A DNA stretch of 63,639 bases, the filler included, from Chrysochromulina tobinii (Eukaryota), in NCBI GenBank assembly GCA_001275005.1. It is 8 parts of 8 records of this genome, joined end to end, with 100 filler letters (N's around TTAATTAATTAA, not from the genome) between each part and the next. Parts side by side here need not be neighbours in the genome. Positions count along the whole stretch, not along the records: positions 1 to 15,936 come from JWZX01000112.1; positions 16,037 to 28,061 come from JWZX01000113.1; positions 28,162 to 44,326 come from JWZX01000114.1; 5 more parts are not named here. One strand, written 5' to 3'. Every line of letters starts with the position of its first letter. The first letter of the stretch is position 1. Below are positions 12,347 through 44,326 of this stretch, one piece after another. The notes beneath the pieces are model-generated. The model was given only the letters and a program-made list of their open reading frames with translations. It did not search any database and was not told the DNA's origin. The position numbers and the translations under genes were made by a program.

Positions 12347-13969
12347 ATGGGATCGGCCACAACGCTGCGGCAGCTCGAAGCGCTCATCAGCAGCGTTCGC
12401 ACTGGCGAGCTGAGCCCTAGAGCGCCCACATCAAACGGCGCCTCGGGAGACGACATCAGTGAGGAGTCGTCGCCTCGTGGTCGATTGCTCGCTCGCTTCG
12501 CGTCCATTGCCGCCTGCACTGCTTCTCGTGACCACGACGCTGCCTTTGGCGAGGACGTGCCCCTCGCCGAGCGGCACGCGATGCAGGTCGGGAATGCGGT
12601 GACATCGATGCTGAATAAGTGCCGTCGCTATGGCGCATGCCTCGCCTGCACGCTCAACCCGTGCATTTGCACCCAGATGCCGCCGCTGGCGCTGTCGCAC
12701 CGCCTCTGGGTGGTGACGCACTGCAAGGAGGTGCTGCGCACGACCGCGACAGGCAAACTGCTTCTGCTCGCCCATCCGCGCGCGACGCTCCTCGTCTCCG
12801 GCCTGCCAGCGCACGATGAGGAGCTCGAGCAGCTGTGCCGCCAGCCGACGACCGCCGTGCTCTACCCGTCTCCCGATGCGCTCACGCCCGCCGCGCTGCT
12901 CGAGCGCGTGGCTCGCATTCCAGCCACGGCCTCACCGGCGTCTGGGGCCAGCGGCAGCAGCGCATCGGAGCAGCAGCCGTCCTCGACGGGTCGAGTGCCG
13001 CCGTCGCCTTGCTTGGACATCGTTCTGCTCGACGGTACTTGGAACCAAGTGCGCCAGATCTTTCGCACCTTACCAGACGCGGTGCCCAAGGTGGTCATCT
13101 CACCCAAGGCCGGATCGGAGCGCAGCGTCTTCGGCACCGCCGTGCGCAAGCAAGGAAAGGCGCGTGAGGAGGCTGGGCGCATCTCCACCATCGAAGCGTA
13201 CGCACAGCAGAGGCGCTCGACCTGAGCGAGGCCGATAGCCACTGATGGCCTCCTGATTGCCAAACCGCGTATGGCCTCCTGATTGCCAATCCGCCGATGG
13301 CCTCCTGATTGCCAAACCGCCGATGGCCTCCTGATTGCCAAACCGTCGATGGCCTCCTGATTGCCTATCCGCCGATGGCCTGATTCCCAGTCCACTGATG
13401 GCGTCTCGTTCGCCTCCGATATCAGGTATGCACAGCTGGCTCTCGACCTCGGCGATGCCGCCGACGTCGTCGAGCCGCTCAGCGGCTACCTTGAAACGTT
13501 TATCGCGGAGATGCCACTCAACCGACCGTTGGAGGCCAGAATTCCGCAGGTGAGTGGCGAGCTCCAGCCAAAGTCGCCGACCGACCCGTACCGTCGTCGC
13601 GCGCGGGGCTTGGGCCATGCCCTCGGCAAGGGGCCCATGAGCGTGCGAGGTCGCGATCTGATCAGCAGCTTGTTCCGCGAGCAGCCGCGAGTGTGGGGCG
13701 TGTCGCTGCACTGGCAGCTACACGAGCGAGGACCGGACGCGATGGAGACTGAGGCCGCGCTCATTGCCTCGGGGCCTCTTAAGACCGAGGGCGCGGACGG
13801 CGTGAGCCACGTCGAGCACGGCGTCGAGGTCGCTCGGTGGCCACTCTCGCTGCTGCTGCTCGAGACTGGCGGAGAGAAGTTTTGGAACCGTCAGAAGGAT
13901 CAGAAGAAGAAGCGGTACCGCTCCACAACTCGATGGCTCGCAGGGGAGGCGCAGGCTGCGGCGGCGTGA
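12347..13969 (+). CDS. DTW-domain tRNA-uridine aminocarboxypropyltransferase (TapT/DTWD2-like)
   Basis: Motifs CLACTLNPCIC, HCKEVLRTTATGKLL, VLYPSPDA, IVLLDGTWNQ and RISTIEA. One intron at 13198-13425 joins STIEA|YAQLALDLG. Confidence 0.85.
13198..13425 (+). other. Intron starting with a degenerate copy of the downstream exon and filled with ~24-nt repeats (CCGATGGCCTCCTGATTGCCAAA)
   Basis: Intron start GTACGCACAGCAGAGGCGCTCGACCTG versus next exon GTATGCACAGCTGGCTCTCGACCTC; ends GATATCAG. Confidence 0.85.
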
Positions 13970-14323
13970 AGCTTTTGAGTTGCGTGTACGCGCCGTGTTG
14001 CGCGCGTTGCGGCGTAGGAATTCCACAATCCTGACTGACCGACTGACTGTCTCACTTTAACTTCAACTTTAACTGAGGCGAGACTCAGGTGGTACATACA
14101 GCCACTGTGGCGCACCAGCCAAGTAACGCGCCCCGACATGCGACAATCGCTTTTCAAGCTGAAATAACGCATGTTCCGACGGTTCAGTACCGTACCCTCG
14201 TGTACGCCCAGGCCCCAGCCCGAGCATCGTCTCGCAACATTCCTCATTCGGGCCGTACAATCATGTGAACATCAACGCACGGAATGACAGAAACCTTGCA
14301 CAGTCCACACAGTAACACATGCT

Positions 14324-15936: not shown

Positions 15937-16036
15937 NNNNNNNNNNNNNNNNNNNNNNNNNNNNNNNNNNNNNNNNNNNNTTAATTAATTAANNNNNNNN
16001 NNNNNNNNNNNNNNNNNNNNNNNNNNNNNNNNNNNN
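15937..16036. other. Artificial contig spacer (N44-TTAATTAATTAA-N44). Identical spacers at 28062-28161, 44327-44426, 53935-54034, 56269-56368, 59113-59212 and 62295-62394
   Basis: Seven identical 100-nt N blocks with a central linker that has stops in all frames. Adjacent contigs are therefore not genomically linked. Confidence 0.98.
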
Positions 16037-16141
16037 TCCCCGCGCGTGACACAGCAGCAGAGCGGCGCGCGAAGGCGCGACGAAACCCTATCAGTGGGCT
16101 TATACAACTTTGCACGCACAGGAGATGTCGCGATCTACAAC

Positions 16142-19838: not shown

Positions 19839-20009
19839 CGTGGGCGCTTGCGTCAGCGCCGCACCTGGAATCCCCGCTAATGCGCAACTTCCGTTGCACA
19901 CCAAATGGATGTGCGGGTCATTGCGGTTGTCTCCCGCTGCGGCGTGAGACGGTTTCACTTTGCCACGGCTCATTCCTCACGCTCCCGGTTTGCTAGCCCA
20001 GGCTCTAAG

Positions 20010-23000
20010 ATGACGGTGCTCTCGACACGCACCGCTGCTGACGTGCACCGTGAGCGGCAGCGGCGCAAAGCTGAGGCGGACGCGCTGTCGGCGGATGGCG
20101 CCGCCGCCTCCAGTGCCACTTCCGACCGGCGCTCCTCGATTGTGCCCAAGTCGCACGAGCGCCGGCCCATCCGGCTGCTGCACGCCTTCGGCTCGCAGAG
20201 CGCGGACATTGGCAGCGCGGTGCTGCTCGATGACAACAATGTGCTGCACCGCTGCGGCCGTTGGCTTGTCTCGCAGGAGATCGACGCGACTGCCGTGCCC
20301 ACGAAGCTCTCGCCGATGGACTTCTTCCTCGAGCTCAGCCCGCAGGTGAGCCGGATCACGGCGATGAGCATGGCGGGGAACCACAAGTACGTGGCCGTGG
20401 GCGAGGTGTGCGACGAACCGCCCGGCGCCGCGCCGCAGCTACGCATCGTGCACCTGCAGGCGCGCCGCACGATGGTGGTGCTCTCGGCGGCACTCGACGG
20501 AGAGTTTGTGGGCTGCGCCTTCTCATCGGACAGCAAGCACGTGCTCGCGTGGACGGGCGCTCCCGAGCACGTGGTGGTCGTGTGGCAGTGGCAGGAGGAG
20601 CGGCCGGTGGGCATGTACCGCTCGCGCAACGCCCTCAGCCGCGTCCTCTTCAACCCGGCGACCGCGACGCTGCTCTCGCTCTGCAGCCCGATGCGCCTCG
20701 CCAGACTCAACGACTCGGGCCACTTCAAGGAGATTGAGGTCTCGACCCTGAAGCGGTACGGGTCCACCTGCCCTGACCACTGCTGGCTAGCGGCCAAGGC
20801 TCTCGTCTTCCTCGACGGGGCCGGCGCGTGCCGTGTGGTCGAGGACTCGACACCAAAGCAGACGATTGCATGCCGCCATCCGGCCTTCCCGCCCACTACG
20901 CTGCAGCCGCTCTCCAAGCAGCATGGATGGCTCGCCGGGTGCGCCGACGGTCAGGTACTCTGCTACCTCAAGCCCGAAGACGGTGCCGAGTACGCGCTCG
21001 CGTGCTGTGTGCGTGGCCCGGCGGGCATGGGGCCAGTGCGCGCTCTACATGTGGGCGAGACCGAGCGCCACTTGCTTGTGCACTGTGCCCAAATCTGTGT
21101 GCTGCCGCTCCGGGAGGCGCTCGCTCGTGCCAAGCGGACTTCGACCGAAGGCGCCGGCGATGACGAGGCCGCAGTGGAGAGGCCAACGACGGGCGGCGGC
21201 CACAGCTTCAGGTTCAGGGCTGCAGGGCAGCAACTGCAGAGCGCCGTCCCGAGCGCAGTCGAGTCCGTTGGCGACGGTCGTTACGAGCCGTTGCTCGAGT
21301 CCGCGCACACCGCGCGCATCATCGGTCTCTCCGCCGCCGTCGCCAAGCCTCTGCTCGCCTCATGTGCCGAAGACCAGACGTTACGCGTGTGGGACCTGCA
21401 GCGCCACGTGTGCCAGTTCGTCGCGAGGCTGCCGGAGCAGCCCCAGGCCGTCTCCTTCCATCCGGACGGCATGCAGCTCGCTCTGTGCCTCGACACGCGC
21501 ATCTCGCTGTACCACGTGGCGATGAGTGGGCTGCTCGCGTGGCGCGACCTGCACAATCCTCAAGGCAAGTGCATCGCGTACTCGCACGGAGGCCATCTGC
21601 TGGCCGCCTCCTCGGGCAACCACGTGCTCGTGTTTGAGGCGTACTCGCTCACGCGCATCGGCTACCTTTCGGGTCACCTCGCGCCCATCACGGCGCTCGC
21701 CTGGGCGGCCGATGACGCCGCATTCAGCACTGGCGGCGCGGATGGCATGGTGTACACGTGGTCGTGCGAGGGCGCGGTGCGCGTAGGCCTCCTCTGATCT
21801 CTCTCAGACACATTCACTGAGTGCCTCTGTGAAGGCCCTCTGTGAAGGCCCTCTGTGAAGGCCTCTCTGAAGGCCTCTCTGAAGGCCTCTCTGAATGCGT
21901 TCTCTGAGTGCCGACCCGTTGGCAGGTACGCCGGGTGCACGAGTGCCGCCTGTACAAGGACGCTATCGTCTCAGCGATCTCTATCCTTTCCGTGACGCGT
22001 CTTGATGGTGCCGACGCCGACGAGGCGGGAGGCTCGCGCCCGATGACACCCGCTGTTTTGAGCGCCTTGGCGACGGCGGCAAGCCGACCGCGTGAGTATT
22101 CGGTGCTCGTCGTGGGCGGGGAGCCGCGCGGCGAACATGCGGACGACGGCGCCAAGGGCGGCGGCGGCGGCCGCTCGAGTCCGCCGTCGCCTTCGGGCAA
22201 GCCAGCGCGCAACCCGCAGTGCTGTCTTCGCCTCGTCGAGTGCAATGCGTCGTCACGGGACCGTAACGACGTACAGCATGAGCTGCTGATGCCGGGGGAG
22301 ACGCCACTTTCGATGGTGTGCACGCTGCCCTCATGCCGCGTGGCGCTCGTGGGTGCCGTCGATGGCGCCGTCTTCACGGTGAGCCTTGGGCGTGAAGACG
22401 GGCCGGTCGCAGACAAGCTCCGCCCACGTGGCCAACCGGTGCGGCCGCACGCGGGGGCTGTGAGCGCCCTAGCTTCCACAGCGGACGAGCTCCTCCTCTT
22501 CTCGGGAGGGGCGGATGGCTCCGTCTTCGTCTATCAGCGCGCCGAGGTCGTCGAGGCGGAGCGTGAGAGGCTCGAAGTGCTCAAGGGCCAAGGGGGCACC
22601 TCCAACACCAAGCCGATGGGCACCTCTGACACCGGCAGCTCGTCGAGGGGGGAGGTGCCCTCAAGGGGGGTGGTGCCCGAGGAGCTACGCTACACGGACG
22701 TGCAGTGCGTCTCTCGCGAGCAACTCGAGCTGTCGAGCATGGCTTTGAGCGAGGCACGCGCCAATTATGCGTACCTCGAGACGAATGCGAAGACAGAGCT
22801 GCAGCGACTGGAGTCGCTGATGGCGACGGCGATGGCGTCCAAGGCACACGAGCAGACGGAGGCCCTTGCGGCGGCGGAGAGGCGCGCGCGCGCCCTCGCC
22901 GCCGAGCACAACACAGCGATAGCCTCGATGCAATCTCGCTTCGCAGATTTCGCAGCCAAGCTGGAGGAGAAGCGGCGGGCGCAGCAGAGTCACCTTGAGT

Positions 23001-25288
23001 CGGTCCTCCGGCGCGAGATTGCGCAATACGACGAGGTCAAGGGGCAGATTGGCAGCGCGACGGAGGCGGCGACTGCTGAGCGCACGCGGCTCATGACGGA
23101 GCTCAACGTAGTGCTCGCCGCGCATGAGGCGGCGGCGGCGCGCCACGCGGCGGATGTGGAGGCGGTGCAGTCTGAGCATGAGGCCGCGCTGGACGATCTC
23201 GAGAAGGCGACCGAGGCGCGCCAGCTGCAACTTATTCATGAGTACGATGAGACGCTGGTAAGAGCACCCCCCCTAATTTTGTGCTCGGCCTGCATCCTCC
23301 TCCGAGCATGCATACGCTCACCACGGCGCCCTGTCCTCCCCACCCTCGACCTGAAACCCCCTCCGCCACCCCTGGCCCTGGTTGCAACCCTCCCCACCTT
23401 TTCGCATCCCCCCCCATGCCATCCCCCGTCCCTCGCAGGTGAGCGAGCGCCATCAGCGCGAGACGATGCGGGACGCGATGGCGACCGAGATCCAGAACGA
23501 AAAGTTCCAAAATTTCAACTTCCAGAAAAAGGTCTTGAAGTATGCGGAGGAGAAGCAGGCGATGGTCAAGACACTCAAGGCCAAGGAAACCGAAAGCGAG
23601 CAGCGAGTCGCCGAGGTGCGTGAGCTGCAAGCGACCATCGAGCGGATGCGCGGAGATGCGCTCGAGCGCGAGCGAAGATTGAGCGAGCTCGATAAGAAGC
23701 TGCTCGCGATGAACGGCTCGATGTCGCGGCTCGAGTCTAATAAGCAGCTGCTCGAGCTCAAGGTGAAGGAGCTCGAGCAAGTCCACGAGCCTACCCTCAT
23801 TGAGCTCAAGGAGGTCAAGTCGACCTGCAGCCGCCTCGAGGCCGAGCTAGTCAGGGAGGGCGACAGGCGCAAAGCCGCGGAGGCGCTCGTGCACGAAAGA
23901 GACAACCTGATCAGGTTCGTCAAACGAGATCTCGCAGCATCCGAGGCACAAGTCAAGGATGCGGAATTCGCCCATGTCATCACCATCAACAAGCTCTTCG
24001 GCCTCATCGACGAGCGCGCTGCCTGGACGACGGTTGCGGACTTTGCACGAGCGCGGGACCAACAGGTTCGTCAAGACCAGAGCCGCAACGGCAGGCCACG
24101 TGTCGACAAGTCCGAAGCACAGCTCGACGAGGATGACAAGGTGCGCCAGGAGCTGCTGCGCCAGCGCGACAAGATGCACAAGCAGGTCGAAGATCTCGAG
24201 GCCGAGCTCAAGCGTGCCCGGGCCCAGGGTCGTGCCTCGACCATGCGCCTCTCTGATGAGGCGCTGCGCGCGCATGACCATCTCAACGAGGCGCGGCGGC
24301 AGGTGAGTGACAAGGACCGCGGACCTCCCCACACCTCCTCCCACACCTCCCCACACCGCCCCACACCTCCTCTCACACCTCCCCACACCTCTTCACACCC
24401 CAGCTCACGAGCCTCGCATGACACCCTCATCCGCCCCTGATCGCCGCCCTGCGCCCTTGCCTGAATTGGCAGGTGCCTGAGCTCCAGATGACATCTGATG
24501 ACCCCTGATGACATCTGATGACCCCTGATGACATCTGATGACATCTGATGACCCCTGATGGCCCCTGATGACCCCTGATGACCCCTGATGACATCTGATG
24601 ACTCCTTGATGACATCTGATGACCCCTGATGACATCTGATGACCCCTGATGACAGGTGCATGAGCTGCAGGAGAAGCTCGCGATCGCCTCGAAGCAGCTC
24701 GCGCTGCACGAAGAGAAGGCCAAGGGCTCTGGCGGGCACTCGCGCCATGGCGGGCGGCGCGTGGCGCGAGGAAGCGCGGGCCTCGCCCCTTCGGCGCTCA
24801 GTTCGGCGCTCGCCGCGGCGGAGCATGCGGCACTACAGCAGCAGGCCGAGGCGGTAGCGGCGGCCGTGGCGGCGGCGAGCGAGGACGAGGCGGCGATGAA
24901 CGAGGTTTCCACCGCTGCCGCGCGAGGTCTCTCGATGAGCAATACGTTGCCGGGCTTCCATCGCACCTTCCATCGCACCGGATCGCCTGACGCAGCCGAC
25001 GACCGGCCGCAGACCGCTCCGCCACCGATTGCACCGTTGGCCAGCGTGCCGGCGCCGGCGACCTTGAGGCCGCCGCTCGCCGCACCGGCGCTCAAGCTGC
25101 CGCCGCCGCCAGTGGCAATGCCGCGCGAGGCCCCTCTCGAGCTCACGGCTCTCATGGAGCGCCACGTGATCGAGAATCAGAAGCTGCGCGAGCAACTGCT
25201 CTTCTTCACGAGCAAGGCGTCCAATCCCGTCCAGAAGAAGCTGAGTCGCTCTGCCTCCAGCTTGGGCATGCCACTGCCGCCCGTCTGA
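20010..25288 (+). CDS. CFAP57: CFAP57/WDR65-like flagellar protein (N-terminal WD40 propellers, long C-terminal coiled coil)
   Basis: AYSHGGHLLAASSGNHVLVF…LSGHLAPITALAWAADDAAFSTGGADGMVYTW and LESNKQLLELKVKELEQVHEP resemble CFAP57. Four ORF blocks join in phase 0 through introns 21777-21925, 23258-23438 and 24303-24655. Confidence 0.8.
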
Positions 25289-28061: not shown

Positions 28062-28161
28062 NNNNNNNNNNNNNNNNNNNNNNNNNNNNNNNNNNNNNNN
28101 NNNNNTTAATTAATTAANNNNNNNNNNNNNNNNNNNNNNNNNNNNNNNNNNNNNNNNNNNN

Positions 28162-30903
28162 GGCGGCGACGGCGTCGGCAGCGGCGACGGCGGCGGCGGC
28201 GGCGGCGGCAGCGACGGCGGCGGCAGCGACGGCGGTGGTCGCGAGCGTCCCTAATTTGGCAATGGCGAGCGTCCACGACGGCGAGGTCGCGGCTGAGGCG
28301 ATCTGCGACGGCGAGGTCGCGGCAGATGCGATCTGCGCGAACCGTCGGCGCTGTGCCACGTCACCACCGAGCGCCCACGAGCGCATCGCATAGTCCGTCA
28401 GCGGCATGCCAAACCAGGCCAGCATGCGCCCCGCGCCGAACCCATGCTCAATCTCGTTCAAGTGGAGCGTCGCGAGAGTATTCTCCGCACCTGGTCATTA
28501 GAGGTCATTAGAGGTCATTAGAGGTCATTAGAGGTCATTAGAGGTCATTAGAGGTCATTAGAGTATTCTCCGCACCGGGTTTGGGCCAGCGGATGAAAAA
28601 GTCCGCACGGAACGCAGAGGAGCCCAGCGCCGTCGCGAGCACGCGCAGCGTCGCGCGCACCTGATGAGGGAGGCAATCAAGAGCGGCCGTCAAGAGCCAT
28701 CGGGAGCGCCGTCACGAGCGCGCGCAGCGTCGCACGCACCACCTCAACGACGGTCCGCCCCAGCAATCAATTCGCAATCAATTCGCAATCCATTCGCAAT
28801 CCATTCGCAATCCATTCGCAATCCATTCGCAATCAAGTCGCACGCACCACCTCTACGACAGTCCGCCCCAGCGCATCGCCCGCGACGACGCTCTCGAGCA
28901 CCATGGACGTGTGGCGCGCGCGCGCCGGTGGGCTGTGAACGTCGTGATTTGCATGTGTGAACGTCGTGATTTGCAGGAGGGCGGTGTGAGGTGTGAGGTC
29001 GGGCACAGCACTCAATGTCGGTGTGAAGGCGGTGTGAAGGCGGGTGTGAGGTCGGGCACAGCGAATCCATGGCACTCAATGACACTCAAAAAGCATACAT
29101 AGGGCATTCAATGGCACTCAACGGCAAGCACCTGTGCACGTGCGCGTTACATGAGGGCGGTGTGAAGTCGGACACGGCCACCAGAGCCTCATGTCCCTCG
29201 AGCAACAGCAGCCGCTCCATGCAGTTGGTGCGTGCCGCGAGCACCTACACGCGCGCGCCGTCATCAGAGGTCATCAAAAGTCATCAGAGGCCATCAGAGG
29301 TCATCAGAGATCATCATAAGTCATCAGAAGTCATCAGAGGTCATCAGAGATCATCAGAAGTCATCAGAGATCATCAGAAGTCATCAGAGATCATCAGAAG
29401 TCATCAGAGGTCATCAGAAGTCATCAGAAGTCATCAGAGGTCATCAGAGATCATCAGAAGTCATCAGAGGGGAGCACCTGCACGCGCCCGCCGTTGATGC
29501 AGAGCACTGCGAGTTCCTGATCATATGGCACCTGACCCTCAATGATGAGCGTGCGGGAGCCGCCCGCGGCAGCGCGACCCGACTTGAAGATGGACTCGGC
29601 CTGCGTGAGGATGAGCTCCTCGAACCAACGGGCGCGGCTCACCTGCCAAGCTCAGATGGGCCTGCATCATTAGGATGACCTGCATCATTAGGATGAGCTC
29701 TGCGAACCAACGGGCGCGGCGCACCTCACGCACTGACGCATCACCCGCGCTGAGAGCCTTCACGGGCGCATAGGCCCACAAGGAGCCATTCGAGAGGTTG
29801 GGAGGGTTGGCAAGACGAGGCCTGGGCTCGCCGCTCGGCATTGGTACGAACCGAAGCGGCTCGATCTGGTCGAGGCTCAGGCAGAGCAGAGGTCATTAGA
29901 GGCAATTAGAAGCCATCAGTGGTCATCAGTGGTCATCAGTGGTCATCACACCTGGTCGAGGCTCAGGCAGAGCAGGCCGCCGCTGTTGGTACCCATCGTG
30001 GGCTTGAGGACAAGGCGCTTGTGGTGGCGCAGGAGCACCTAAATGTCCGCAGAGGCCATCAGGGGCACTTCAAAGGCCGCAGAGGCCATCAGGGGCACTT
30101 AAAAGGCCGCAGAGGCCATCAGGGGCGCTTCAAAGTCCGCAGAGGCCATCAGCGGCGCAGCGAGGGGATAATGGCAAGGCGCCGTGGCGAGCGACTCGTA
30201 ACCGCCGCCGCCGCCGCCGCCGCTGAGCATCGTGCTGCTGGCGCCCATGCCGAGGGTGTCGCTAGCCGTTGTGGGTACAGATGCGATCGGGCTGGTACGC
30301 TTCTTCGACTTAACGGGGAGGCGATAGTCATCAGAGGTCATCAGGAGGGGAACACACCTCCAGTCGCAGCTCACAGCACGGGTCTGAGGGCGCGAGGAGC
30401 GTGCGGGAGGTCGTCAGAACGGGCACGTACTGCCCGTCGTCGTCCACCGCAAAGTCGGCCTCCGCGCCCACGTCGACGCCACCCATCGGGTCGTCGACGA
30501 AGGAGCACGTGTGCAGAGTCGGTACGATGAGCGCGATCGGCACTCCCAGCCCCACCCAGTGCTCCTTGCGCAGCGCCTTGTCGTCCGACCAAGCCCCCGC
30601 ATCGCACCGGAAGGACGCTCGCTTCTGGGCCGCGTGAAAGCATCCAATCAGCTGGGACAGAGAGCTCGCGTAATTGGCTCCTTCCGCGCTGCTCGGCCCC
30701 TTCCACGACGCATCAGCCAGCCCAAACAGCAGGCTATGGCGGTTGGCGCAAAGGTCTTCCTCGAATTGGTCCGCGACCGTTTTCGGCGACGCAGCGCCGT
30801 CAATGAATATGTCTTGGTACATGTTCGAGTGTTGCCCAGCGGGCGCGCGCGCACACCTGCACTTCGCCCACCGTCTCGTGTGGGACCTTCCCGATCGGGA
30901 CAT
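28162..30903 (-). CDS. Intron-rich ATP-grasp-fold protein, 3'-truncated; not seen as a single ORF
   Basis: Splicing introns 29866-29951, 29643-29724, 29245-29477, 28933-29131, 28661-28847 and 28491-28575 gives RLVLKPTMGTNSGGL…LIIEGQVPYDQELAVLCINGG…FRADFFIRW…LHLNEIE, the ATP-grasp motif order (KPxxG; ExxxxxE; RxD; NE). Structure between 30039 and 30357 is unresolved. Confidence 0.7.
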
Positions 30904-31061: not shown

Positions 31062-32476
31062 ATGCATCCCGCCGTGGACGTCCGGCTCGGGCAGCTGCGC
31101 TGGGCCGCGTTGCATGTGCATCCCGCATTCGACGCCGATCATCCGAATTGGGACGAAGCCAACTGCTCGGGACTGTTGCTCACGCACGTGGCCGTGCCGA
31201 CGGCCATCCAGCCCATCTGGCACGGCTCCACCACGGGTTCGCTCCGGCGGTTGCTCCAACCGTGCCGCCGCGCGTGCTCCCTCGGCCAGGTCGGCTGCAC
31301 CACTCGGCAAGGGAGCGTGATCGGACGTTGCAATGCGACACACGGCGTCGAGTACGCCCACCGTCTCCCGCGGCCGGGCGAGCCGGCCGTTGTGAGCTTC
31401 AACATGCCATCGTCGAAGCACGTTGAGGCCGTGCTTGCAGCGATCGCGGACGCGCGACCGCGGTTGTACTTTGAGTTTGAGGCGGCAGGGCACGCGCGCG
31501 TGCCACGAGATACCATCCTCAAGGGCGTCGATGGCATGATGTCGTTTCAGCGCGATGCGCTCGTGCCGTACCCGTACTTGAGCGCCTCGCAGCTTTGGGA
31601 AACCTCGCTGCGCCGTCCAGAGCGTGGGTTTCATGAGCGCCGACCCGCCGTGGCCGCATTCGTGTCCAACTGTGGCTCCCGGTATCGCAACGAGGTGGTC
31701 GAATTCTTACGAAACGCGTCGATCGAGGTCCACTCATACGGCGCGTGCTACCGGCCACGCCGCGCGCAGCAGGACGGAGGTGCCAACAGCTCCACGTTTG
31801 ACGCTCGCGAGTTCCGCAAGTCTCAGGGCTTTGAGTCTGGGGTGAAGCCCGAATGCTTGCACTATCGCGCGATCCTTGCGGTGGAGAACTCGGCGTGCAC
31901 GGACTACGTGACCGAGAAGCTCATACAGGTGGTCGGGTGCGGGGCGGTGCCGATCGTACGCACAGTTAATGGGCTGCCGGATTACAACGGCCTGTACGGC
32001 AGGTTCCCCATGCTGGATGGAGCACGTCTTGATGCAGCCTTTGCATCCTCCGTGCGCCAAGTGCTGACGGACCAGCGCACCTTTGAGAGCTACATGCCGT
32101 GGCACACTCGGACGTGGGTGCCCAGCCACGAGGTCATCGTCCAAAAGGACATGCGGAACCCGCACTGCACGCTACTTGATCTTATCACCAAGAGTCGCGA
32201 GACGTCGGGGGCTCTGTCGCCCTCGCACCTCGCGTCGGACGCACCAGGTGTGTCCTCTGATGACCCCTTGAGGCCCTCATCATCACCCTTTGTTGACCCC
32301 TTGATTACCCTTTATGACCGCAACGCCTCGCGTCCGTTTCACCAGGTGGCGGCGGAAGGTGTGAGACGGGCTCCAAGATGCACACACCACGGCCCCAGCA
32401 AAGGTTTGCACGCTCGTTTGCGGGTGGCTCCTACGCGACAGCGGAAGAGGTTGCGCGGAATGGCTCGCTCGGGTGA
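31062..32476 (+). CDS. Alpha-1,3/4-fucosyltransferase (glycosyltransferase family 10)
   Basis: AAFVSNC, VHSYGAC and YRAILAVENSACTDYVTEKL…GAVPIV. A probable intron at 32248-32345 moves the stop to 32476; the unspliced ORF ends at 32570. Confidence 0.85.
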
Positions 32477-32957
32477 AAGGGAGAAAAAGGGACGCGGATT
32501 AATCAATAAAATCATTAATCAACATACGAGCGGAAGGAGCGGTACACAAGTACCTCTAAGGTACCTCTAAACAAGCGGCTCTCGAGTTCTTTACGCGTAG
32601 CCAGCCTAAAAAGGGGGAGAGTGGTCGGAGAAGAGGAGATGTATCGCCCAGCCCGCTCCCAAGAAACGGACTCCGAACGGCCAAACTTGCGAAGGCGCCA
32701 ATGGCCAAATGCGAAGGCCGAAGCTTGCCGCGCGTTCACGCTCCCCAACAACGTGAAACGCCGCTCGATCGTCATCGTGAAGAGCGCCCATGGGCCGCCC
32801 ATGCTGAAAATGTCAACTCATGACCTCTAATGACCTCTAATGACCTCTAATGACCTCATAAATGACCTCTAATGACCACTAATGACCTCTACTGACGCCC
32901 ATGGGCCTTCATGGGCCGCCCATGCTGAAAGGGTGGGCGCCTCTGGTGCGTTATCCG

Positions 32958-34071: not shown

Positions 34072-37000
34072 ATGTCACTGGCGCTCGCGTTCGTGCTCGT
34101 CGCCCTCGGCCAGTCGTGCACCGACCGCTCGAACGAGTGTGGCACATGGGCGGCCCTTGGCAAGTGCTCCAAGGATCGGAGCCACATGTCCAAGGAGTGT
34201 CCCTACTCGTGCAAAACGTCGTGCGGTGGCAAGGGCGCGGCGCTGGTGGCTGCGATTGCGCTCGAGCCGGTGCCGAAGGCCGACCAGTATAGACAGCTGG
34301 GCGACATTTACGCGATCGAAGGCAAGATGGTGGCGTCCGAGCAGGCGCTGCGCCTGGCCACCGAGATCGCACCCACCGACAGCGAGATCCAACGGCTTCT
34401 CGGCACGGTCGTGAAGCGATTGGGCGACGCCGAGGGAGCGCTCGCTTTGTTCCGCAAGGCTGTGCAGCTCAACCATTCGAACGCATGGGCGCACGTCAAC
34501 ATCGGCAACGCGCTCACTCCGGGCGATGAGTGCTTCGCAGCGTACCGCGAGGCCATCCGTGTCGACCCGACCATGACGAACGCGTACATCAGCCTGGGCG
34601 ATAAGCTCCTCATGGGAGGCCGCGCGGAGGAGGGCTTCGCGACCCTACGCTCCCTCGCGGCCTTCTCGGCGCAGCATGATCCCGGCCGTCTCTACGAGAA
34701 GCTCGCCGAACACCAAAGGGTCGTCGAGGCTGCCTACGCCCAGACCCTCGCTGACGCCAGGCGCGGCCCCCAGACCTCTGCAGTGGCTCGCAATTGGATC
34801 GAGTACACGCGAGAGGCGCTAGGCGACGACAAGTGCCGCAACCCGCGCACTCGGATGGAGTGTGAAGAGAAGTGCCTGACGCCCGCATGCATTGAAGGAC
34901 TCGAAGAGGCGCTTCAACATGTCACCACCCATGTGCGCGTGGACGAAGCGCCGCATGGCGAGGAGTACATGTATGTACCGCCGCTCTGACGACCTCTGAC
35001 GACCTCTGCCGACGATCTGATGAGCTCTGATGAGCTCTGATGAGCTCTGATGAGCTCTGATGAGCTCTGATGACCTCTGCCAAGCTCTGATGAGCTCTGA
35101 CGGAGCGTACGTGTATGCACCGCCGCCACTGATGAGCTCTGATTGCGACGGATGAGCCCTTGATTGCGTCCTTCATCAGGTATCGCGTCATCGGCCAGTC
35201 CGAGAGCCAACCTTCCCTGATTGCGACTGATGACCCTTGATTGCCGCCTTCATCAGGTATCGCATCATCGGCCAGTCCGAGAGGCAACCTTCCCGTGCGC
35301 CGCTTGAGCCGGCGGTTCTCAAAGGAGCCGTTGATGAGGCGTGGGCGCCGTACCGGTGGAGCGCTTCGTCTCGGGCGCTCACCGAGGCAGCGGGCGAGGA
35401 CGAAGTCAAAGTGACGGTGACACAGCGCGGCAAGTTTGAGGTGTGAATAGATTAGATGAGCCCTTGATTGCCGCCCTCATCAGGTGTCGGAGAACGCAAC
35501 CACTCGAGCTCATCTCCATTCCCTGATTGCAACTGATGACCCTTGATTGCGTCCTCCATCAGGTGTCGGAGAACGCAATCACGCGAGCTCCGACGAGCTC
35601 CATTCGCGTCGCGGATCTGGTCGCGCTGCTTCACTCGAAGCGCACGCTCAATACGACGCTCTACACGCGCCAGGTTCGTCAATTGCATGCTGATCGGCCG
35701 CCCCTGCGATGGATGGCCTCTCGCCTTGCATGCTGATGGCCTCCCTGATTGCATGCTGATGGCCTCTCGCCTTGCATGCTGATGGCCTCCCTGATTGCAT
35801 GCTGATGGCCTCTCGCCGTGCATGCTGATGGCGCGCCCTGTGCTCAACACGACGCTTCGTCCAACCCTTATTTGCAGGCAACTCTCGACATGATGCCGCG
35901 CTTGCTTTCGACGGTGGCGTCCACGCCGTGGCTGGCGAACTTGCGACTGCAGGCGAGCCTGATTGCATCCCTCATTGCGAGCCTGAGTGCATCCCTCATT
36001 GCATGCTGATTGCGCTCCAGCATCGTCGGCTAGTTGCATGCTGATGGCCTCCCTCATTGCATGCTGACACATGGTTGCATGCTGGCACCGCAGACCATCA
36101 CCATGTGGCTGGGCGACGGCCATTTCCACAACACGCTCCACAACGACCCATGGGACAATTTCCTCTGCCAGCTCCAAGGCACGCAACGGATGACCTTAGA
36201 TGACCTCTGATGACCTCTGATGACCTCTGATGACCTCTGATGACCTCTGATGACCTCTGATGACCTCTGATGACCTCTGATGACCTCTGCCAGCTCAAAG
36301 GTACTCTGCTCGGGCCGCCCGCGTGCGAGTGCTCACCACGGCCCACTTACCCCACACAGGTACGAAACACGTACTGCTCTGGCCGCCCGATGCGCGCCCT
36401 CTCCTGTATTATGCCAAGCGCCAAAATACGTTCGCCGAGTACGCGCCCTCGACGGGGGAGAAGCGGCACCGTCGTGTCATCGAGACTGACAACACCGCCG
36501 GAGTCAACATCGCCAAGGTCGCCTTTGCACAGATGGCCTCTGATCGCCTCTGATGGCCTCTGATCGCCTCTGATCGCCTCTGATGGCCTCTGATGGCCTC
36601 TGATCGCCTCTGATCGCCTCTGATTGCCTCTGATGGCCTCTGATGGCCTCTGATCGCCTCTGATCGCCTCTGAGTCCCTCTGATCGCCTCTGATGACCTC
36701 TGATTGCCTCTGATCACCTCTGATGGCCGACTGAAGGCAGTTGCCGCTCTTTCGGCACGCCTTCACATGCCAGTGCTCATCACGGCGCCCTGTCCCGCAG
36801 GTCGACTTTGGACAGTTCCCGCTCTTTCGGGACGCTTTGAAGCAGATGCGGTACGCGAAGCTCGAGCGCGGCGACTGCTTCTTCCTCCCTCGCGGCTGGC
36901 ACCACGTCGTCTTCTCCGTGGTGGGGACGCCGGCGAATTTCAATTTGGCGATCAACTTCTGGTTCAATCGCGAAGCTACCCTCAAGGGCGCGAAAGAGGG

Positions 37001-37175
37001 CGCGGACGCAGCGCAGGCCAAGGTGGGAGCGGGCGGCGCCTTGAAGCGCATCCAGGCACGGGAGGGGTTCACATTCACACTGGATGAGCTTCACAGCGCC
37101 CTCGCCGAAGCGAGAGCGGAGGGGCAAGCGTGCGCCGCGGGGGAGGCTGGAGCGGTGGAGGCGGAGCGACCCTAA
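34072..37175 (+). CDS. Secreted ShKT + TPR + JmjC/cupin 2-oxoglutarate/Fe(II) dioxygenase
   Basis: Signal peptide MSLALAFVLVALG; ShKT CTDRSNECGTWAALGKC…MSKECPYSCKTSC; TPR helices. After removing introns 34971-35256, 35441-35562, 35674-35877, 35953-36093, 36179-36359 and 36518-36800 the C-terminus reads MWLG…TLHNDPWDNFLCQLQGTKHVLLWPP…LERGDCFFLPRGWHHVV…NLAINFWF (HxD…H triad). Confidence 0.85.
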
Positions 37176-37598: not shown

Positions 37599-38790
37599 AT
37601 GTCGCCGCCCAGCCTGAAGGCTGAGGCCTTCCCCCCGCCCGTGCTCGACGCCATGCGCAAGCTCGACACGAAGAGCAACGAGCCCAGCCTCATTCGCCAG
37701 CTATACGTGCTGGCGCTGCTCAACCGCGACGAAGCGATGCGGCGGATGCACTTCGGGCTACCACCCGACGTGGTGCTCGCGCAGCAGCCACCCTCGCTGC
37801 TCGCGCTCGCGCGCCCGCCGGCACCCTCCAGCTTCCAGTCGGCCGGCTTTCACCTTAAGCCGTCCACGTCCACGGGAGTGCGCCCTCGGCGCAGCCGCGT
37901 CTTCGGCGCGATGAGCGGCGCGGCCGAGAAGGGCGCCGACGCCGTCCAGGCCATCAGCGCGGCCCGCGAGCGCGCGATCCCGCACTTTCCGCCCGGGTAC
38001 GGCGTGCCGCCCATCGGCCACGAGCGTGTGTCGACCCGCGCGCAAACCGCCGACCCGTTCTCGTCGTCAGCGCCCACACGCGCGCCCACGTTCACAGCGC
38101 CCACATCGGCATCAGCGTCCGGGCTCCACTCCACTCCACTCCACTCCACGTCTCCGAGCGCCCTTCTCGCTCGACCGCCGCTGCGCCCCGCCGACCTCGA
38201 GAATGCGTACCCCGTGCGCCTGAGCCTCTATGAGCCGCCGTCGCCCGAGCACCGATTGGGAGCCTCATCAGGCAGAGGGAAGCCCAGGCTGCCCACCATG
38301 GCGCTACCGGTACGCGAGCTGCTCGCCACGCCTCCGATGCGAGCTCCGACGCTCCCAGCATGCAAGTGCTCATCACGGCGCCCTGCTCTCCCCACAGGTA
38401 CGCGAGCTGCTCGCCACGCCTCCGATGCGAGCTCCGACGCCCGGCAAGACGCCTCTCGTCGGGTACGCGAGCTACGCCTCCCTCGCGTCTCTCGAGGCCG
38501 CCGCGAGTGAGAGCGCCGCCGTGGGCGCCGGCCGGCCGATGGCCTCGCTCAGCCAGGAGCAGCGCCAGCAGTTGAGCGGCAGCGGCGGCGGCGCCGGTCG
38601 CGCGGGCTTCTCCTTTGGCGGCGCGTCGACGGCTCCTAATATGGGTGGCGCGCAGAAGCCGAGCTTCGACGCGTGGGCGGCGGCCGAGGAGGACCTCAAG
38701 TATCGAGCTGAGCAGGAGACGCGACGGGAGGAGATGCGCACTGTGAAGACCTCGATCGGCCGTGATGACGTGGGCACGATCGGCTTCTGA
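37599..38790 (+). CDS. Hypothetical low-complexity protein with one 88-nt intron
   Basis: ORFs 37590-38510 and 38230-38790 join via intron 38310-38397 (MALP|VRELLATPPMRAPTPGK). Confidence 0.65.
38310..38397 (+). other. Minimal, apparently young intron: 43-nt perfect copy of the downstream exon plus a 45-nt acceptor cassette
   Basis: GTACGCGAGCTGCTCGCCACGCCTCCGATGCGAGCTCCGACGC + TCCCAGCATGCAAGTGCTCATCACGGCGCCCTGCTCTCCCCACAG, followed by the identical 43-mer. Confidence 0.85.
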
Positions 38791-40250: not shown

Positions 40251-40284
<34 letters not shown>

Positions 40285-43200
40285 GGTGGACAGTGACGAT
40301 CCATTCGCAGGGCTCTTCTCCGGCATAGCGCCGCCGCCGGCTACGTCACCGTCGGTCCCGCGGCGAATCTCGTTAGACCGTCCCGCGAGTAGCAGCAGCG
40401 GCACTGGCGGGCTCGATCCAAATTTGGAAAGTCGGGCCGATCTCATCGCACCTACCAAATTTGGGTCAGAGATGGTCGTCAGTCGGTCGGAGGAGGCACA
40501 TACGATCACGTGTGTCGAGCAGATGGCGCCGGCGGCGCAGGTACCGACCTACCTTCCCAAGATCCCGTCCGTCCGTGCCGCGTCCCCCTTGCGACTGCAT
40601 GCATGTGCTCACCACGGCGCGTCCTCTTCCCCACAGGAGGCCATCCGAATGCTCCAAAAGGGGTGTCAGGCTCTCAAGTTTGGCAGGCAGGGCAAGCCTC
40701 ACTCGGTGCGGCGCTGCGTCCACTGAGTGCGACTGAGTGCGACTGAGTGCGACTGAGCGCGTCCGCGTGCGTTGCATGCTGATTGCCTCCCCCATTGCAT
40801 GCTGATTGCCTCCCTCATTGCATGCTGATTACCTCCCCCATTGCATGCTGATTACCTCCCTCATTGCATGCTGATTGCCTCACCCATTGCATGCAGGTGC
40901 TCTTCCGCCTGTCCGAGGACCTCCAGACGTTATCCTCATTGCATGCTGATTGCCTCCCCCATTGCATGCAGGTGCTCTTCCGCCTGTCCGAGGACCTCCA
41001 GACGTTATCCTGGGAGAAGAAGGGCCTGCAGGGTCTCGGCAAGGACATGGCGATGGGTTTCGGCAAGATGATGGGGGGTGGGTTCGCGAAGAGCGCCGAC
41101 ACGGCGCGCCGAGTCGACCTGAGTACTTTGGTGGAGGTGCTGCAGGTGCGTGCTAGCCTTGATGGCGTCTGATGGCGCACGATGGCGTCTGATGGCGTCT
41201 GATGGCGTCTGATGGCGTCTGATGGCGCCTGAGTGCGTCTCTCATCAACTGCTCGTCGTGCTTCAGGGCCCTGAGAGCAATGTCATTCGACGCAACCGCG
41301 GCGAGAAGCCGATTTCGTCCGCGGACGCGGGTGGCGGCACGGTGGAGGGCGACTACTCGTCATACAAGGAGGCCAAGGAGAACTTGTGCCTCTCGCTGCT
41401 CTTCGTGAGCAACGAGAAGGATGCAGACCGTGACTCGCTCGATATCCAGTGAGAGAGCGACGAGGGCTTTGCATGATGATTGCATGCTGATTGCATGCTG
41501 ATTGCATACTGATTGCATGCTGATTGCATCTTTGAGCACATGCTGATTGCACCCTTCATCAGGTGCGAGAGCGACGAAGCATTCATCAGCTGGGTCGTGG
41601 GGTTCCAAGCCCTCATGGCGCTGCATGAGGCGCTGAGCGGTGGGTTCGATGCGCTCTCGAGCGTGCTGCATGCTGATTGCATGCTGATTGCATGCTGATT
41701 GCATGCTGATTGCATGCTGATTGCATGCTGATTGCATGCATGCTGAGCGGTGGGTTCGATGCGCTCTCGAGCGTGCTCTCTGAGTGCATGCTGATTGCAT
41801 CTCTGAGGACGTGCTGATGGCCCCCTTCATCAGGTGGGGCTGAGGGGCTTGCGAGTGTCCGTGTCGAGCGCGAGGCCGCCCGTGCGCGGGCCCTCGCGCG
41901 GAGTGCGCCGCAGGTACGCAACTGATGACCTCTGATGACCTCTGATGACCTCTGATGACCTCTGAGGACCTCTGAGGACCTCTGAGGACCTCTGAGGACC
42001 TCTGAGGACCTCTGAGGACCTCTGAGGACCTCTGAGGACCTCTGATGACCTCTGATGGCCTCTGATGGCCTCTGATGGCCTCTGATGACCTCTGATGACC
42101 TCTGATGACCTCTGATGACCTCTGATGACCTCTGATGGCCTCTAATGACCTCTGATGACCTCTAATGACCTCTGATGACCTCTGATGGCCTCTAATGACC
42201 TCTGATGACCTCTGATGACCTCTGATGACCTCTGATGACCTCTGATGACCTCTGATGACGTACGCGGGCCTCGCTCGGAATGCGCCGCAGCTCTACCAAG
42301 CGATGCTGGAGCGCGAGGAGAAGCAGATGCAGCAGATGATGCGAGAGGCTGAAGAGGAAGCCAACCGGCAGTATGAGGCCTCGCGTGCGCGCGCAGAAGC
42401 GGCGGATCGTCAAGCTTTCGAAGCGAGGGTGAATGCCACTGATGACATCTGATTGCATCTGATTGCATCTGATTGCATCCCTCATCAGGTGCGTCGCGAG
42501 GCAGAGGACCTCTACTTTCCTCTTGATCGCCTTTGATGACCTCCTGATTGCCTCCCTCATCAGGTGCGTCGCGAGGCAGAGGACCAGGCGAACGCGCTGC
42601 TCGAGGCTGCTCGTAAGGAGGCTGAGCTTGCGCCGTTAGCAGGCGTCTTCGAAGGGCAGAGGTACTAAGTGCCACTGATGACGTCTGATTGCATCTGATT
42701 GCATCCCTCATCAGGTGCGTCTTCGAAGGGCAGAGGTACTAAGGAGGTTGATTGCCATCTGAGTGCATCGGATGGCCTCTGATGGCCTCTGATGGCCTCC
42801 CTCATCAGGTACCGGATGTCCGCTGATGTCCTCTGATGGATGTCCTCTGATGGCCTCTGATGACCTCTGATGACCTCTGATGACCTCCCTCATCGACTGA
42901 TGGCCTCTGATGGCATGCTGATTGCCTCCCTCATCAGGTACTATGGAGGCGGCTCAATGCCCCTCGGGCTGCCTGATCCCTTCTCTCCAGGCCTCTCGTC
43001 CGCAATGGCGGCGGCGGCGGCGGCGATGGCGGCGGGAGATCCGTCCGCCATGATGGCTCTCCGCGCGAGATTAGCCGAGGTTGAGGAGGAGAACCGACGG
43101 TTACGCGCCAATGGCGGCGGGCGGCGTGGGGGGGGCGGCGGCGTCGAAGAGGAAGAAGACGAGCAGGTTGTGCTCGATCGCAAGTGCTTCGAGGCGTATG

Positions 43201-44326
43201 AGGCCGCCCGCGTCGCGATGATGGCGACGCTCGAGGCTGGCAAGTTCCCCACAGCCGCCGAGTACGCAGAGCGTGATCTGATGAGCTCTGATGGCCTCTT
43301 AATCAAGTCTGATGATGAGTTCTGATGATGATCTCTGATGATCTCTGATGACCTCTAGTGACCTCTAGTGACCTCTGATGACCTCCCTCATCAGGTATGC
43401 GGCGCGTGATCTGCACCTGTACCGGCTCTCGGATGCGGACCTCCAAGCGGAATATGCGCGCTACACGGTAACTCCGCGGATGAGCTCTGATGACCTCTGA
43501 TGACCTCTGATGAGCTCTGATGACCTCTGACGACGTCCCTCATCAGGCGCTGTACCTCGCGGACGAGACGAAATCCATCGTGCGCGGGATGGCGGAGATG
43601 ACGGTCATCAAGCTTGGGGAGATGGTCGACAAGCCGCAGGCGAAGCGCATTCAGATGATGGCGCGGCAGGTAAGCGAGGGCCCTCTAATGGACCCCTGAT
43701 TGCACTCTGATGGACCCCTGATTGCCCTCTGATGGCGCGGCAGGTAAGCGATGGCCCTCTAATGGACCCCTGATTGCACTCTAATGGACCCCTGATTGCC
43801 CTCTGATGGCGCGGCAGGTAAGCGATTGCACTCTAATGGACCCCTGATTGCCCTCTGATGGCGCGGCAGGTAAGCGAGGGCCCGGGAGAGGACCCTTTGG
43901 TGACCCCTCTGATGGCCTCTCTGATGGCCCTCTGATGGACCTCTGATGGACCCCTGATTGCACTCTGATTGCACGCTGCTGAGTGCGACCGATTGCGCGA
44001 CTCATCAGGTGATGGAGGCGCGGCTTATGTCGCCCTGATGACGCTCTAATGACGCCCTGATGACACCCCGACGGCGCCCTGATGACGCCCTGATTGCCTC
44101 CCTCATCAGGTGGAGGAGGCGCGGCTTGCGAATGAGGCTCGCGAGAGGGAGCTCGCCGAAGGCGCGGCGGCGCGCGAGAAGCGTGCAGCGCTCGATGCGA
44201 TGAACCGCAGGGCATACGATGCATGCGTACCGGTATGGAAGGAGCTCAAGGCGCGCGCCGTGGCGGGCGTCGTGGCGGGTGCCGACGGCGGCGGCGGCGG
44301 GGGCGGGGGCGGCGGCGGCGGCGGGG
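39158..44326 (+). CDS. Large coiled-coil / GGGM-repeat / PH-domain protein, 3'-truncated, ~11 introns
   Basis: Spliced PH domain of PLC/PRAF type: MLQKGCQALKFGRQGKPHS|VLFRLSEDLQTLSW…RRVDLSTLVEVLQ|GPES…LSLLF…SLDIQ|CESDEAFISWVVGFQAL. Introns: 40541-40636, 40706-40971, 41146-41266, 41449-41562, 41640-41833, 41914-42290, 42429-42563, 42662-42937, 43262-43394, 43468-43546, 43670-44109. Confidence 0.78.
41922..42258 (+). repeat. Intronic 10-nt tandem array (CTGATGACCT / CTGAGGACCT / CTGATGGCCT / CTAATGACCT), about 33 copies
   Basis: Directly visible. Related arrays occur at 24485-24652, 28494-28560(-), 29260-29470(-), 35017-35100, 36190-36288, 36535-36725, 43275-43385 and elsewhere. Confidence 0.95.

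What the first reader, a model, noticed from the sequence alone, without database searches (positions are those of the whole stretch)
13240..44100. Intron fillers are strand-polarised arrays of branch-point-like CTRAY motifs that also place stops in all frames
Seen: the units differ (CTGATGACCT, CTAATGACCT, CTGATTGCATG, CTGATGGCGT, CTGATCGCCT, CTGAGTGCGA, CTGATGACAT, CTGATGAGCT), but nearly all contain CTRAT/CTGAG and read this way on the sense strand. Minus-strand genes show TCATCAGAGG/TCATTAGAGG on + (28494-28560, 29260-29470, 59975-60055). A 10-nt unit containing TGA/TAA puts stops in all three frames within three copies. Known: CURAY is the U2 branch-site consensus. Inference: the filler makes a new insertion spliceable at once and makes retained transcripts NMD targets. 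Its antisense translation (HQRSSEVIRG…) explains many spurious ORFs in the track.
Basis: partly seen in the sequence, partly recalled or inferred. Interest (0 to 1): 0.75.

Follow-up and report, generated by a model that had tools for sequence, protein, structure and literature searches.

The report
Repeat fillers that become algal introns
In an alga related to Chrysochromulina, short 10-11-letter repeats fill most introns and nearly always face the direction of the gene, likely because DNA repair pastes them into genes either way round and mainly the forward copies can be spliced out, while the rare backward copies sit in frame inside coding sequence.

Summary
All 28 unit-bearing introns modelled in the window read CTGAT-type on the gene strand, and 27 of 28 carry stops in all three frames. 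In outside loci 258 of 314 arrays were sense, 4 antisense, 52 uncalled. The units are one family by descent, CTGAT and almost never the optimal CTRAC (1 of 320). Only the last unit looks like the branch point: A fixed at -17 in 160 of 253 CATCAG acceptor-like sites. Sister introns without arrays are often stop-free, so NMD targeting is not required. True antisense arrays exist, in frame inside coding ORFs, with flanking duplications; one has an empty haplotype in RNA contigs. Fillers sit between 10-45 bp duplications of host sequence, with junction microhomology, and are scarce between genes. Best reading: gene-targeted, microhomology-primed templated insertion at staggered breaks, then a splicing filter that produces the polarity. 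New variant of known intron-gain routes; interest 0.5.

The parts
13198..13425 (+). intron of DTW-domain gene; 26-bp-period sense array; 5' end copies start of next exon
21783..21925 (+). intron 1 of WD40 gene; 12-13 bp variant array, weak family match
24303..24655 (+). intron 3 of WD40 gene; CCCCACACCT-type array, then CTGATGACAT/CCC array (24487-24654) between copies of the exon start
28491..28575 (-). young intron: about 16-21 bp duplication supplies the GT donor, perfect CTAATGACCT array, 4-nt junction microhomology
28661..28847 (-). intron with two nested duplications; GATTGCGAATG array without CTRAY; ends in the TTGAT(-17)...CTCATCAG module
28933..29131 (-). intron with TTGAGTGCCA and CACACC-type repeats, no CTRAY near the 3' end
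29245..29477 (-). intron with 21-copy array (29260-29470); acceptor taken from duplicated exon end
29866..29951 (-). intron; perfect 24-bp copy of upstream exon end supplies AG; last CTAAT at -31
30039..30357 (-). intron with 30-bp-period units; may hide a further exon (not resolved)
32248..32345 (+). intron near the end of the fucosyltransferase gene; TTGATGACCCC array; the one array intron with stops in only two frames
32820..32896 (.). array between convergent genes, inside a perfect 21-bp duplication; antisense to the nearer minus ORF, sense to the plus gene; apparently not intronic
34971..35256 (+). intron 1 of TPR/ShK/JmjC gene; CTGATGAGCT array; spliced in one RNA contig, partly covered unspliced in another
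35441..35562 (+). intron 2; shares 24 rare 12-mers with intron 1 (likely local copy)
35674..35877 (+). intron 3; 23-bp dimer array
35953..36093 (+). intron 4; GC donor
36179..36359 (+). intron 5; GC donor; array ends 80 nt from the AG, separate GCTCACCAC module (A at -25) is the likely branch site
36518..36800 (+). intron 6; CTGATCGCCT array; separate GCTCATCAC module (A at -22)
38310..38397 (+). control: array-free intron with 47-bp duplication, stop-free in all frames
40541..40636 (+). control: array-free 96-nt (3n) intron with no stop in any frame
40706..40971 (+). intron with CTGAGTGCGA and 23-bp arrays, duplicated acceptor plus exon start
41146..41266 (+). intron with CTGATGGCGT array
41449..41562 (+). 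intron with CTGATTGCATG array, 15-bp duplication supplies donor, A at -17
41640..41833 (+). intron with CTGATTGCATG array, A at -17
41914..42290 (+). intron with 34-copy array (41922-42259); acceptor from 25-bp copy of upstream exon end; last CTRAY at -36
42429..42563 (+). intron ending in CTGATTGCCTCCCTCATCAG module
42662..42937 (+). intron holding a 38-nt exact copy from the previous intron, including its acceptor and 7 exon bases (local template switch)
43262..43394 (+). intron; 19-bp duplication supplies donor, A at -17
43468..43546 (+). intron with CTGATGACCT/GAGCT array, A at -17
43670..44109 (+). intron with repeated 74-bp duplications of exon end plus donor, 11-bp arrays, A at -17
8853..8932 (-). 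intron with TTGAGTACGA array, no CTRAY (outside the finding's span)
59937..60114 (-). intron of minus TPR gene with CGGATGACCT/CTGATGACCT array (59991-60056); acceptor position uncertain
61217..61333 (+). CTGAGTGCCCT array on +, likely antisense inside a minus-strand ORF (61075-62346)
   Evidence: no Pfam hit
61629..62017 (+). mixed array on +, likely antisense inside the same minus-strand ORF
   Evidence: no Pfam hit

Best explanation
The fillers are one family of 10-11 bp repeats that sit between 10-45 bp duplications of host sequence and face the gene's direction in about 98% of called cases, likely because break repair copies them into gene bodies in either orientation and splicing then keeps mainly the forward ones. 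Shown: family identity, duplications, junction microhomology, scarcity between genes, polarity, fixed -17 terminal unit, in-frame antisense copies. Inferred steps: (1) staggered nicks or a break in a gene leave a 3' end ending in CTC/CTG-like bases, which anneals to an existing array, in the next intron or elsewhere, and copies some units, sometimes with the CCCTCATCAG end; fill-in makes the duplication; (2) a forward insert has no internal YAG, takes GT or AG from the duplication or the module, and uses its last unit as branch point, so it is spliced and the mRNA is restored; (3) a backward insert offers no CTRAY and a CAG every 10 bases, is not spliced cleanly, and survives only when its length is 3n and the protein tolerates it; (4) slippage and repeat insertions lengthen and homogenise arrays. 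Stops in all frames are a by-product of TGA in the unit and a period of 10 or 11.
For: Flanking direct repeats at 87 of 283 blocks against 0 of 277 mismatched controls, 10-45 bp. Overlap of 3 or more bases at 17 of 30 abutting 5' and 13 of 24 abutting 3' junctions against about 5-6% in the null. Antisense arrays in open frames: L020:1209-1250 in a TIR-domain ORF, L038:8381-8441 in an ankyrin/Sel1 ORF, L038:2930-2995; the two L038 inserts have 24- and 18-bp duplications and lengths 78 and 75. RNA contigs of 2 of 4 runs skip exactly the 78 bases, with GC..TG ends and linked SNPs, so a likely empty haplotype and not a splice. Sense consensuses hold YAG in 9 of 320, the same units read backwards in 268 of 320. 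A of TRAY at -17 in 160 of 253 acceptor-like sites, next bases G 72%, T 63%. Terminal unit has T at position 6 in 55 of 104 against 19 of 104 for the unit before, and A at position 7 in 22 against 67. At most 3 of 185 arrays lie in 63 kb of gaps between opposite-strand genes, about 22 expected if uniform (my arithmetic). Adjacent window introns share rare 12-mers: 4 of 25 pairs against 6 of 465 pairs from different genes.
Against: Only three firm antisense inserts, so equal insertion of both orientations is not shown; an insertion bias could give the same counts. No RNA contig spans an antisense insert on both sides, so retention in mRNA is inferred. Local copying was not significant across loci (81 near pairs, p = 0.11). 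Only 86 of 280 blocks gave a measurable duplication and some microhomologies come from nested duplications. L020 has no clear duplication. A pure filter does not explain the scarcity between genes; targeting to genes is assumed, not explained. No intron was shown to be polymorphic. Strand calls in loci come from my codon model (102 right, 3 wrong, 39 uncalled of 144 chunks in leave-one-gene-out).
Confidence: 0.55

Rival explanations
1. One reading: the array is selected as many branch points plus stops in all frames, making an insertion spliceable at once and retained transcripts NMD targets.
For: CTRAY in 248 of 320 sense consensuses; stops in three frames in 27 of 28 array introns; where the acceptor comes from a duplication the last unit lies at varying distances (-8 to -36), so spare units could help.
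Against: CTRAC in 1 of 320 and 0 of 170 non-seed arrays; CGGAT units (96) outnumber CTAAT (74) among 2227 units; arrays 78-80 nt from the AG in introns with their own CTCAY module; 12 of 23 array-free duplication introns stop-free in all frames and 11 of 23 of 3n length; spacing peaks sharply at 10 (1514) against 11 (180), 12 (108), 13 (19), 8 (2), although 8 and 13 would shift frames equally well (loci were chosen with a 10-mer pattern).
Confidence: 0.12
2. Insertion itself is sense-specific because it is RNA-guided: an excised intron's 3' end is joined to the displaced sense DNA strand or to pre-mRNA (partial reverse splicing), and repair completes the 5' side.
For: Precise shared 3' module ending at AG followed by GT, variable 5' extent; strong preference for gene bodies, scarce in convergent gaps.
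Against: Antisense inserts with duplications exist; many inserts lack the module and take AG from the duplication; microhomology at both junction types points to DNA template switching.
Confidence: 0.15
3. Arrays grow in place by slippage of the branch-point decamer of introns that were already there, or of a small non-autonomous transposon (introner); polarity is inherited.
For: Arrays are homogeneous within and differ between introns (70 consensus types among sense arrays); Chrysochromulina introners are on record (10.1101/2022.06.06.494994, passages); the module CTGATGACCTCCCTCATCAG folds into a 7-bp hairpin. Slippage surely acts after insertion.
Against: Pure arrays abut perfect duplications with no element ends (28491-28575; L038:8372-8449); duplication length varies 10-45 bp, unlike the 4 bp reported for the Chrysochromulina introner; antisense exonic copies cannot grow from an intron's branch point.
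Confidence: 0.13

Closest known systems
10-11 bp intronic tandem repeats of Emiliania huxleyi (Read et al. 2013, doi 10.1038/nature12221; recalled, paper not held)
   Same: As I recall: haptophyte, 10-11 bp period, preference for introns, strand and positional bias, role left open.
   Different: Could not compare units. I do not recall a link there to duplications, microhomology, a -17 terminal module or in-frame antisense copies.
[quoted passage not shown]
   Same: New introns flanked by direct repeats from staggered breaks, with inserted filler.
   Different: Here the filler is one recurrent repeat family copied from other introns, the repeats are 10-45 bp, and they often supply a splice site.
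Alt-EJ / SD-MMEJ templated insertions and rice patch-type tandem duplications (PMC7407515, passages)
   Same: Microhomology, templated filler from nearby or ectopic donors, duplications attributed to offset nicks.
   Different: Those passages do not describe a self-feeding intron family; no repair gene was tested here.
Introners, including Chrysochromulina sp. family with 4-bp TSD (10.1101/2022.06.06.494994, passages and section 8)
   Same: Repeated intron creation, splice sites recruited from the duplication, enrichment in genes.
   Different: No end-to-end identity, no terminal inverted repeats, long variable duplications, tandem-array body. The preprint's supplementary family tables were not seen and may list this family.
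Tandem genomic duplication model of intron gain (PMC3443670, passages)
   Same: Duplicated exon sequence with AG/GT gives splice sites without changing the mRNA.
   Different: The duplications here are too short to be introns alone; a filler between them supplies length and a likely branch point.

Membership tests
U2 branch site | Match to CURAY / yUnAy on the pre-mRNA strand | tested here: met
   CTRAY 248 of 320, YTNAY 262 of 320 sense consensuses; optimal CTRAC 1 of 320. Consensus itself is recalled.
U2 branch site | Adenosine about 15-40 nt upstream of the AG, followed by a pyrimidine-rich stretch | tested here: met
   Terminal unit only: A at -17 in 160 of 253 sites, further peaks at -27 and -37 from the period.
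U2 branch site | Lariat forms at that adenosine | not testable with these tools
   Only assembled contigs were available.
U2 branch site | Pairing with this organism's U2 snRNA | not tested
   No Rfam match in the window; no genome held.
Introner (transposon-derived intron family) | High similarity between introns at both ends | tested here: not met
   Shared 20-nt 3' module, but 5' ends are host-derived copies and bodies differ.
Introner (transposon-derived intron family) | Short fixed-length target duplication and/or terminal inverted repeats (present in many, not all, families) | tested here: not met
   Duplications 10-45 bp; the only inverted repeat is 5-7 bp inside the 3' module.
Introner (transposon-derived intron family) | Enrichment in genes; splice site taken from the duplication | tested here: met
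   At most 3 of 185 arrays in opposite-strand gaps; donors or acceptors inside duplications in window introns.
Break-repair intron gain / templated insertion | Direct repeats flanking the insert | tested here: met
   87 of 283 against 0 of 277 controls.
Break-repair intron gain / templated insertion | Microhomology at junctions and an identifiable template | tested here: met
   17 of 30 and 13 of 24 junctions with 3 or more bases; 38-nt copy from the neighbouring intron.
Break-repair intron gain / templated insertion | Empty allele with one copy of the repeat | tested here: inconclusive
   Seen for one antisense insert in RNA contigs of 2 of 4 runs, no DNA run laid there; not shown for any intron.
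Break-repair intron gain / templated insertion | Dependence on an end-joining polymerase | not testable with these tools
   Needs genetics.
NMD-enforced intron stops | Retention creates an early stop | tested here: met
   In-frame stop inside 27 of 28 array introns.
NMD-enforced intron stops | Stop-free 3n introns are depleted (criterion recalled from Jaillon et al. 2008) | tested here: not met
   4 of 12 stop-free array-free introns are 3n; small sample, intron ends predicted.

The most novel reading that the evidence does not exclude
A transposase-free, self-feeding intron factory: gene-targeted break repair copies a branch-point-bearing decamer from existing introns into new sites, creating introns when it lands forward and HQRSSEVIRG-type peptide inserts when it lands backward, and so accounts for much of the intron content and the 10-11 bp repeat bias of haptophyte genomes.
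Probability: 0.35. Interest if true: 0.75.

Novelty: new variant of a known kind. Interest (0 to 1): 0.5.

Why it matters
Where new spliceosomal introns come from is still open. This alga offers many young events with readable footprints (duplication, microhomology, filler source) and a built-in control, the backward copies, in an organism that grows in culture. It makes testable whether repair alone, without a transposase, can mass-produce introns, and it offers a cause for the strand bias of haptophyte intron repeats. It also warns annotators: HQRSSEVIRG-type peptides are mostly antisense artefacts but some appear to be real in-frame inserts.

Tried and rejected
No whole genome was held, so the genome-wide test used 131 loci from one capped metagenome scan, 12 of them dropped as overlaps or window copies (the part of L068 beyond the window was kept), 120 sequences in all. 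Viral contigs gave no match. The protein search with JmjC-gene exon 1 returned only generic TPR proteins. Joints were swamped by repeats from elsewhere; depth over arrays was not used as a copy number. My first idea that 61629-62017 lies in an intron of a minus-strand ankyrin gene was dropped: a stop lies just upstream in that frame and Pfam found nothing; the continuous minus ORF scores best in all three non-array segments but is unproven. Antisense calls at L075:12212 and L050:10641 were rejected on inspection as sense arrays with a T-to-A change. Two of the three arrays in opposite-strand gaps (L012, L068 extension) may be miscalled introns. Local copying as the general rule was not supported across loci. 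A MITE with terminal inverted repeats was rejected. Rfam found nothing in the window. Nine literature searches found no held paper describing this family; term look-ups in PMC4580454, PMC8775090 and PMC12480563 (passages) showed nothing on it; PMC8469720 passages were not relevant. Three earlier-findings look-ups were empty.
Full report
Setting. The window is eukaryotic, about 63% G+C, in scaffold pieces joined by N linkers. Its 14-3-3 protein falls in a 90% cluster with a protein named as Chrysochromulina tobinii, so the host is a Chrysochromulina-type haptophyte. No whole genome was held. L068 is 99.9% identical to the window over 4.3 kb. After dropping overlaps, 120 sequences and 592 kb remained.

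Are the arrays in introns? I built exon models by hand; seven gave open frames end to end, and Pfam fixed the strand of the DTW, WD40, kinase, fucosyltransferase, TPR/ShK/cupin and minus TPR genes. RNA-library contigs support the six introns of the TPR/ShK/JmjC gene: one contig joins 34970 to 35257 across a GT..AG intron, and another holds 429 letters between 35440 and 36801, the sum of my four middle exons. In L038 a sense-array intron is skipped with GT..AG ends. The other introns are models.

Polarity. In the window, 28 of 28 unit-bearing introns read CTGAT-type on the gene strand. For the loci I called the host strand from masked flanks with a codon Markov model (leave-one-gene-out: 102 right, 3 wrong, 39 uncalled of 144 chunks; after self-training 129, 3 of 197, not fully independent). 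Of 314 family arrays outside the window, 258 were sense, 4 antisense, 52 uncalled. Without the arrays that matched the search pattern: 109 sense, 2 antisense, 17 uncalled in loci grouped as the same organism, and 41, 0, 2 in long loci of other metagenomes. The units descend from one family, so these are not independent origins of the motif, but they are separate insertion sites.

Is it a branch-point array? Oriented by host strand with no motif filter, 248 of 320 consensuses contain CTRAY, 1 contains CTRAC, 286 a stop, 9 a YAG; read backwards, 4, 0, 20 and 268. Across 2227 units the C at position 8 (0.90) and the G at position 3 (0.93) are as constant as or more constant than the T at position 2 (0.89), which a branch site needs (recalled); CGGAT (96) outnumbers CTAAT (74). 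This is conservation by descent. The branch-point signal is positional: upstream of 253 YYYCATCAG sites the A of TRAY lies at -17 in 160, and the following bases are G (72%) and T (63%) (100 of the 253 have same-strand coding downstream, 21 opposite, the rest uncalled). The terminal unit differs from the one before it: T at position 6 in 55 against 19 of 104, A at position 7 in 22 against 67, which fits a pyrimidine tract, loss of a competing TGAC and weakening of a 7-bp hairpin with the acceptor (-7.0 against -1.3 kcal/mol), or descent from one master end. Some introns keep a separate CTCAY module at -22 to -26 with the array 78-80 nt away; two have no CTRAY 8 or more bases from the end. So one unit likely serves as branch point; the array as a whole need not.

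Stops and NMD. Stops in all three frames occur in 27 of 28 array introns and in none of 6 array-free ones. But CTRAY always holds TGA or TAA, and a period of 10 or 11 does the rest. A sister class of duplication introns without arrays is stop-free in all frames in 12 of 23 cases, 4 of these 3n, and 11 of 23 are 3n overall. Insert lengths at array blocks are even across frames (27, 30, 29). Stops may help when an intron is retained, but nothing here shows that they are why the filler exists.

First, the fillers lie between direct repeats of host sequence: 87 of 283 blocks against 0 of 277 mismatched controls, 10-45 bp, most 15-24. In window introns the first copy often gives the GT or the second the AG. 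An earlier scan note (e1-2577349) reports the same footprint elsewhere in this genome; it is an AI note, not independent support. Second, repeat and filler overlap by 3 or more bases at 17 of 30 and 13 of 24 abutting junctions, against 5-6% in a null (some cases are nested duplications). Third, one filler carries 38 exact bases from the previous intron, acceptor and exon start included, and adjacent window introns share rare words more often than introns of different genes (4 of 25 against 6 of 465); across loci this was not significant (p = 0.11). Fourth, arrays avoid intergenic DNA: at most 3 of 185 in 63 kb of opposite-strand gaps. Fifth, true antisense arrays exist and keep the frame: L020:1209-1250 in a 638-aa TIR ORF, L038:8381-8441 in a 686-aa ankyrin/Sel1 ORF, L038:2930-2995. 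The L038 inserts measure 78 and 75 bases with 24- and 18-bp repeats. RNA contigs of 2 of 4 runs lack exactly the 78 bases; the ends are GC..TG, no shift within the 12-base ambiguity gives a canonical intron on either strand (my check), and the contigs carry other SNPs. That is most likely an empty haplotype or paralog; a reverse-transcriptase jump between the repeats is not excluded because no DNA run was laid. In the window, the arrays at 61217 and 61629 probably belong to this class, and 32820 lies between convergent genes inside a perfect 21-bp repeat.

Mechanism. The footprints fit microhomology-primed templated insertion at offset nicks or breaks, as described for alt-EJ and rice duplications (PMC7407515, passages), feeding the break-repair and duplication routes of intron gain (PMC3443670, passages). 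Both orientations occur. Forward inserts are YAG-free and carry a usable branch point, so they would be spliced; backward inserts would survive only in frame, and inside existing introns would add cryptic acceptors. Confidence 0.55. Rivals: RNA-guided sense-specific insertion 0.15, growth in place or a small introner 0.13, adaptive branch-point and NMD array 0.12. Gene targeting is unexplained by any filter; introners also favour genes and GC-rich sites (10.1101/2022.06.06.494994, passages).

Known and new. I recall that Read et al. 2013 reported 10-11 bp intronic repeats with strand and positional bias in Emiliania; the paper was not held, so this is memory only. Chrysochromulina introners with 4-bp duplications are on record; this family fails the end-to-end identity and fixed-duplication tests, but the preprint's supplements were not seen and may bear on it. 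Nine searches found no held paper on this family. Verdict: observation confirmed, interpretation partly supported, new variant of known intron-gain routes, interest 0.5.

Noticed in passing
window 44427-53934: About 9.5 kb of 23-24 bp satellite-like repeat, strongly one-sided (CTGAG 183 on + against 10 on -, stops 563 against 121), with long open frames on the minus strand (up to 831 aa). Coding repeat or satellite not decided.
   Followed up: partly
window 15937, 28062, 44327, 53935, 56269, 59113, 62295: Seven 100-base linkers of N around TTAATTAATTAA are assembly joins; L068 continues past the one at 44327.
   Followed up: partly
window 2818-2989, 23258-23438, 38310-38397, 40541-40636, 60242-60336; 76 sites in loci plus window: A second intron-end module, GTGCTCACCACGGCGC...TCCCCACAG, also strand-polarised (42 against 1) and also born with long duplications, usually stop-free.
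   Followed up: partly
window 35953 and 36179: Two GC-AG introns in one gene, supported by RNA contig length.
   Followed up: yes
window 35050-35440: One RNA-library contig runs from inside intron 1 into exon 2 and on through spliced exons, a hint of intron 1 retention (or a graph chimera).
   Followed up: no
window 59214-60950: About 740 bp tandem duplication within the minus-strand TPR gene, with an array intron at the join.
   Followed up: no
window 24323-24399, 28980-29050, 54433-54480: A further 10-12 bp repeat type (CACACC core) in introns, read the same way relative to the gene.
   Followed up: no
window 30173-30310 (minus): Coding-like stretch inside the modelled intron 30039-30357; may be an exon with an AAG acceptor.
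   Followed up: no
L038:7042-8482: RNA contigs of four runs show several SNP haplotypes or paralogs of the ankyrin/Sel1 gene.
   Followed up: partly
window 34072-37175: Predicted secreted protein joining ShK, TPR and cupin/JmjC domains.
   Followed up: partly
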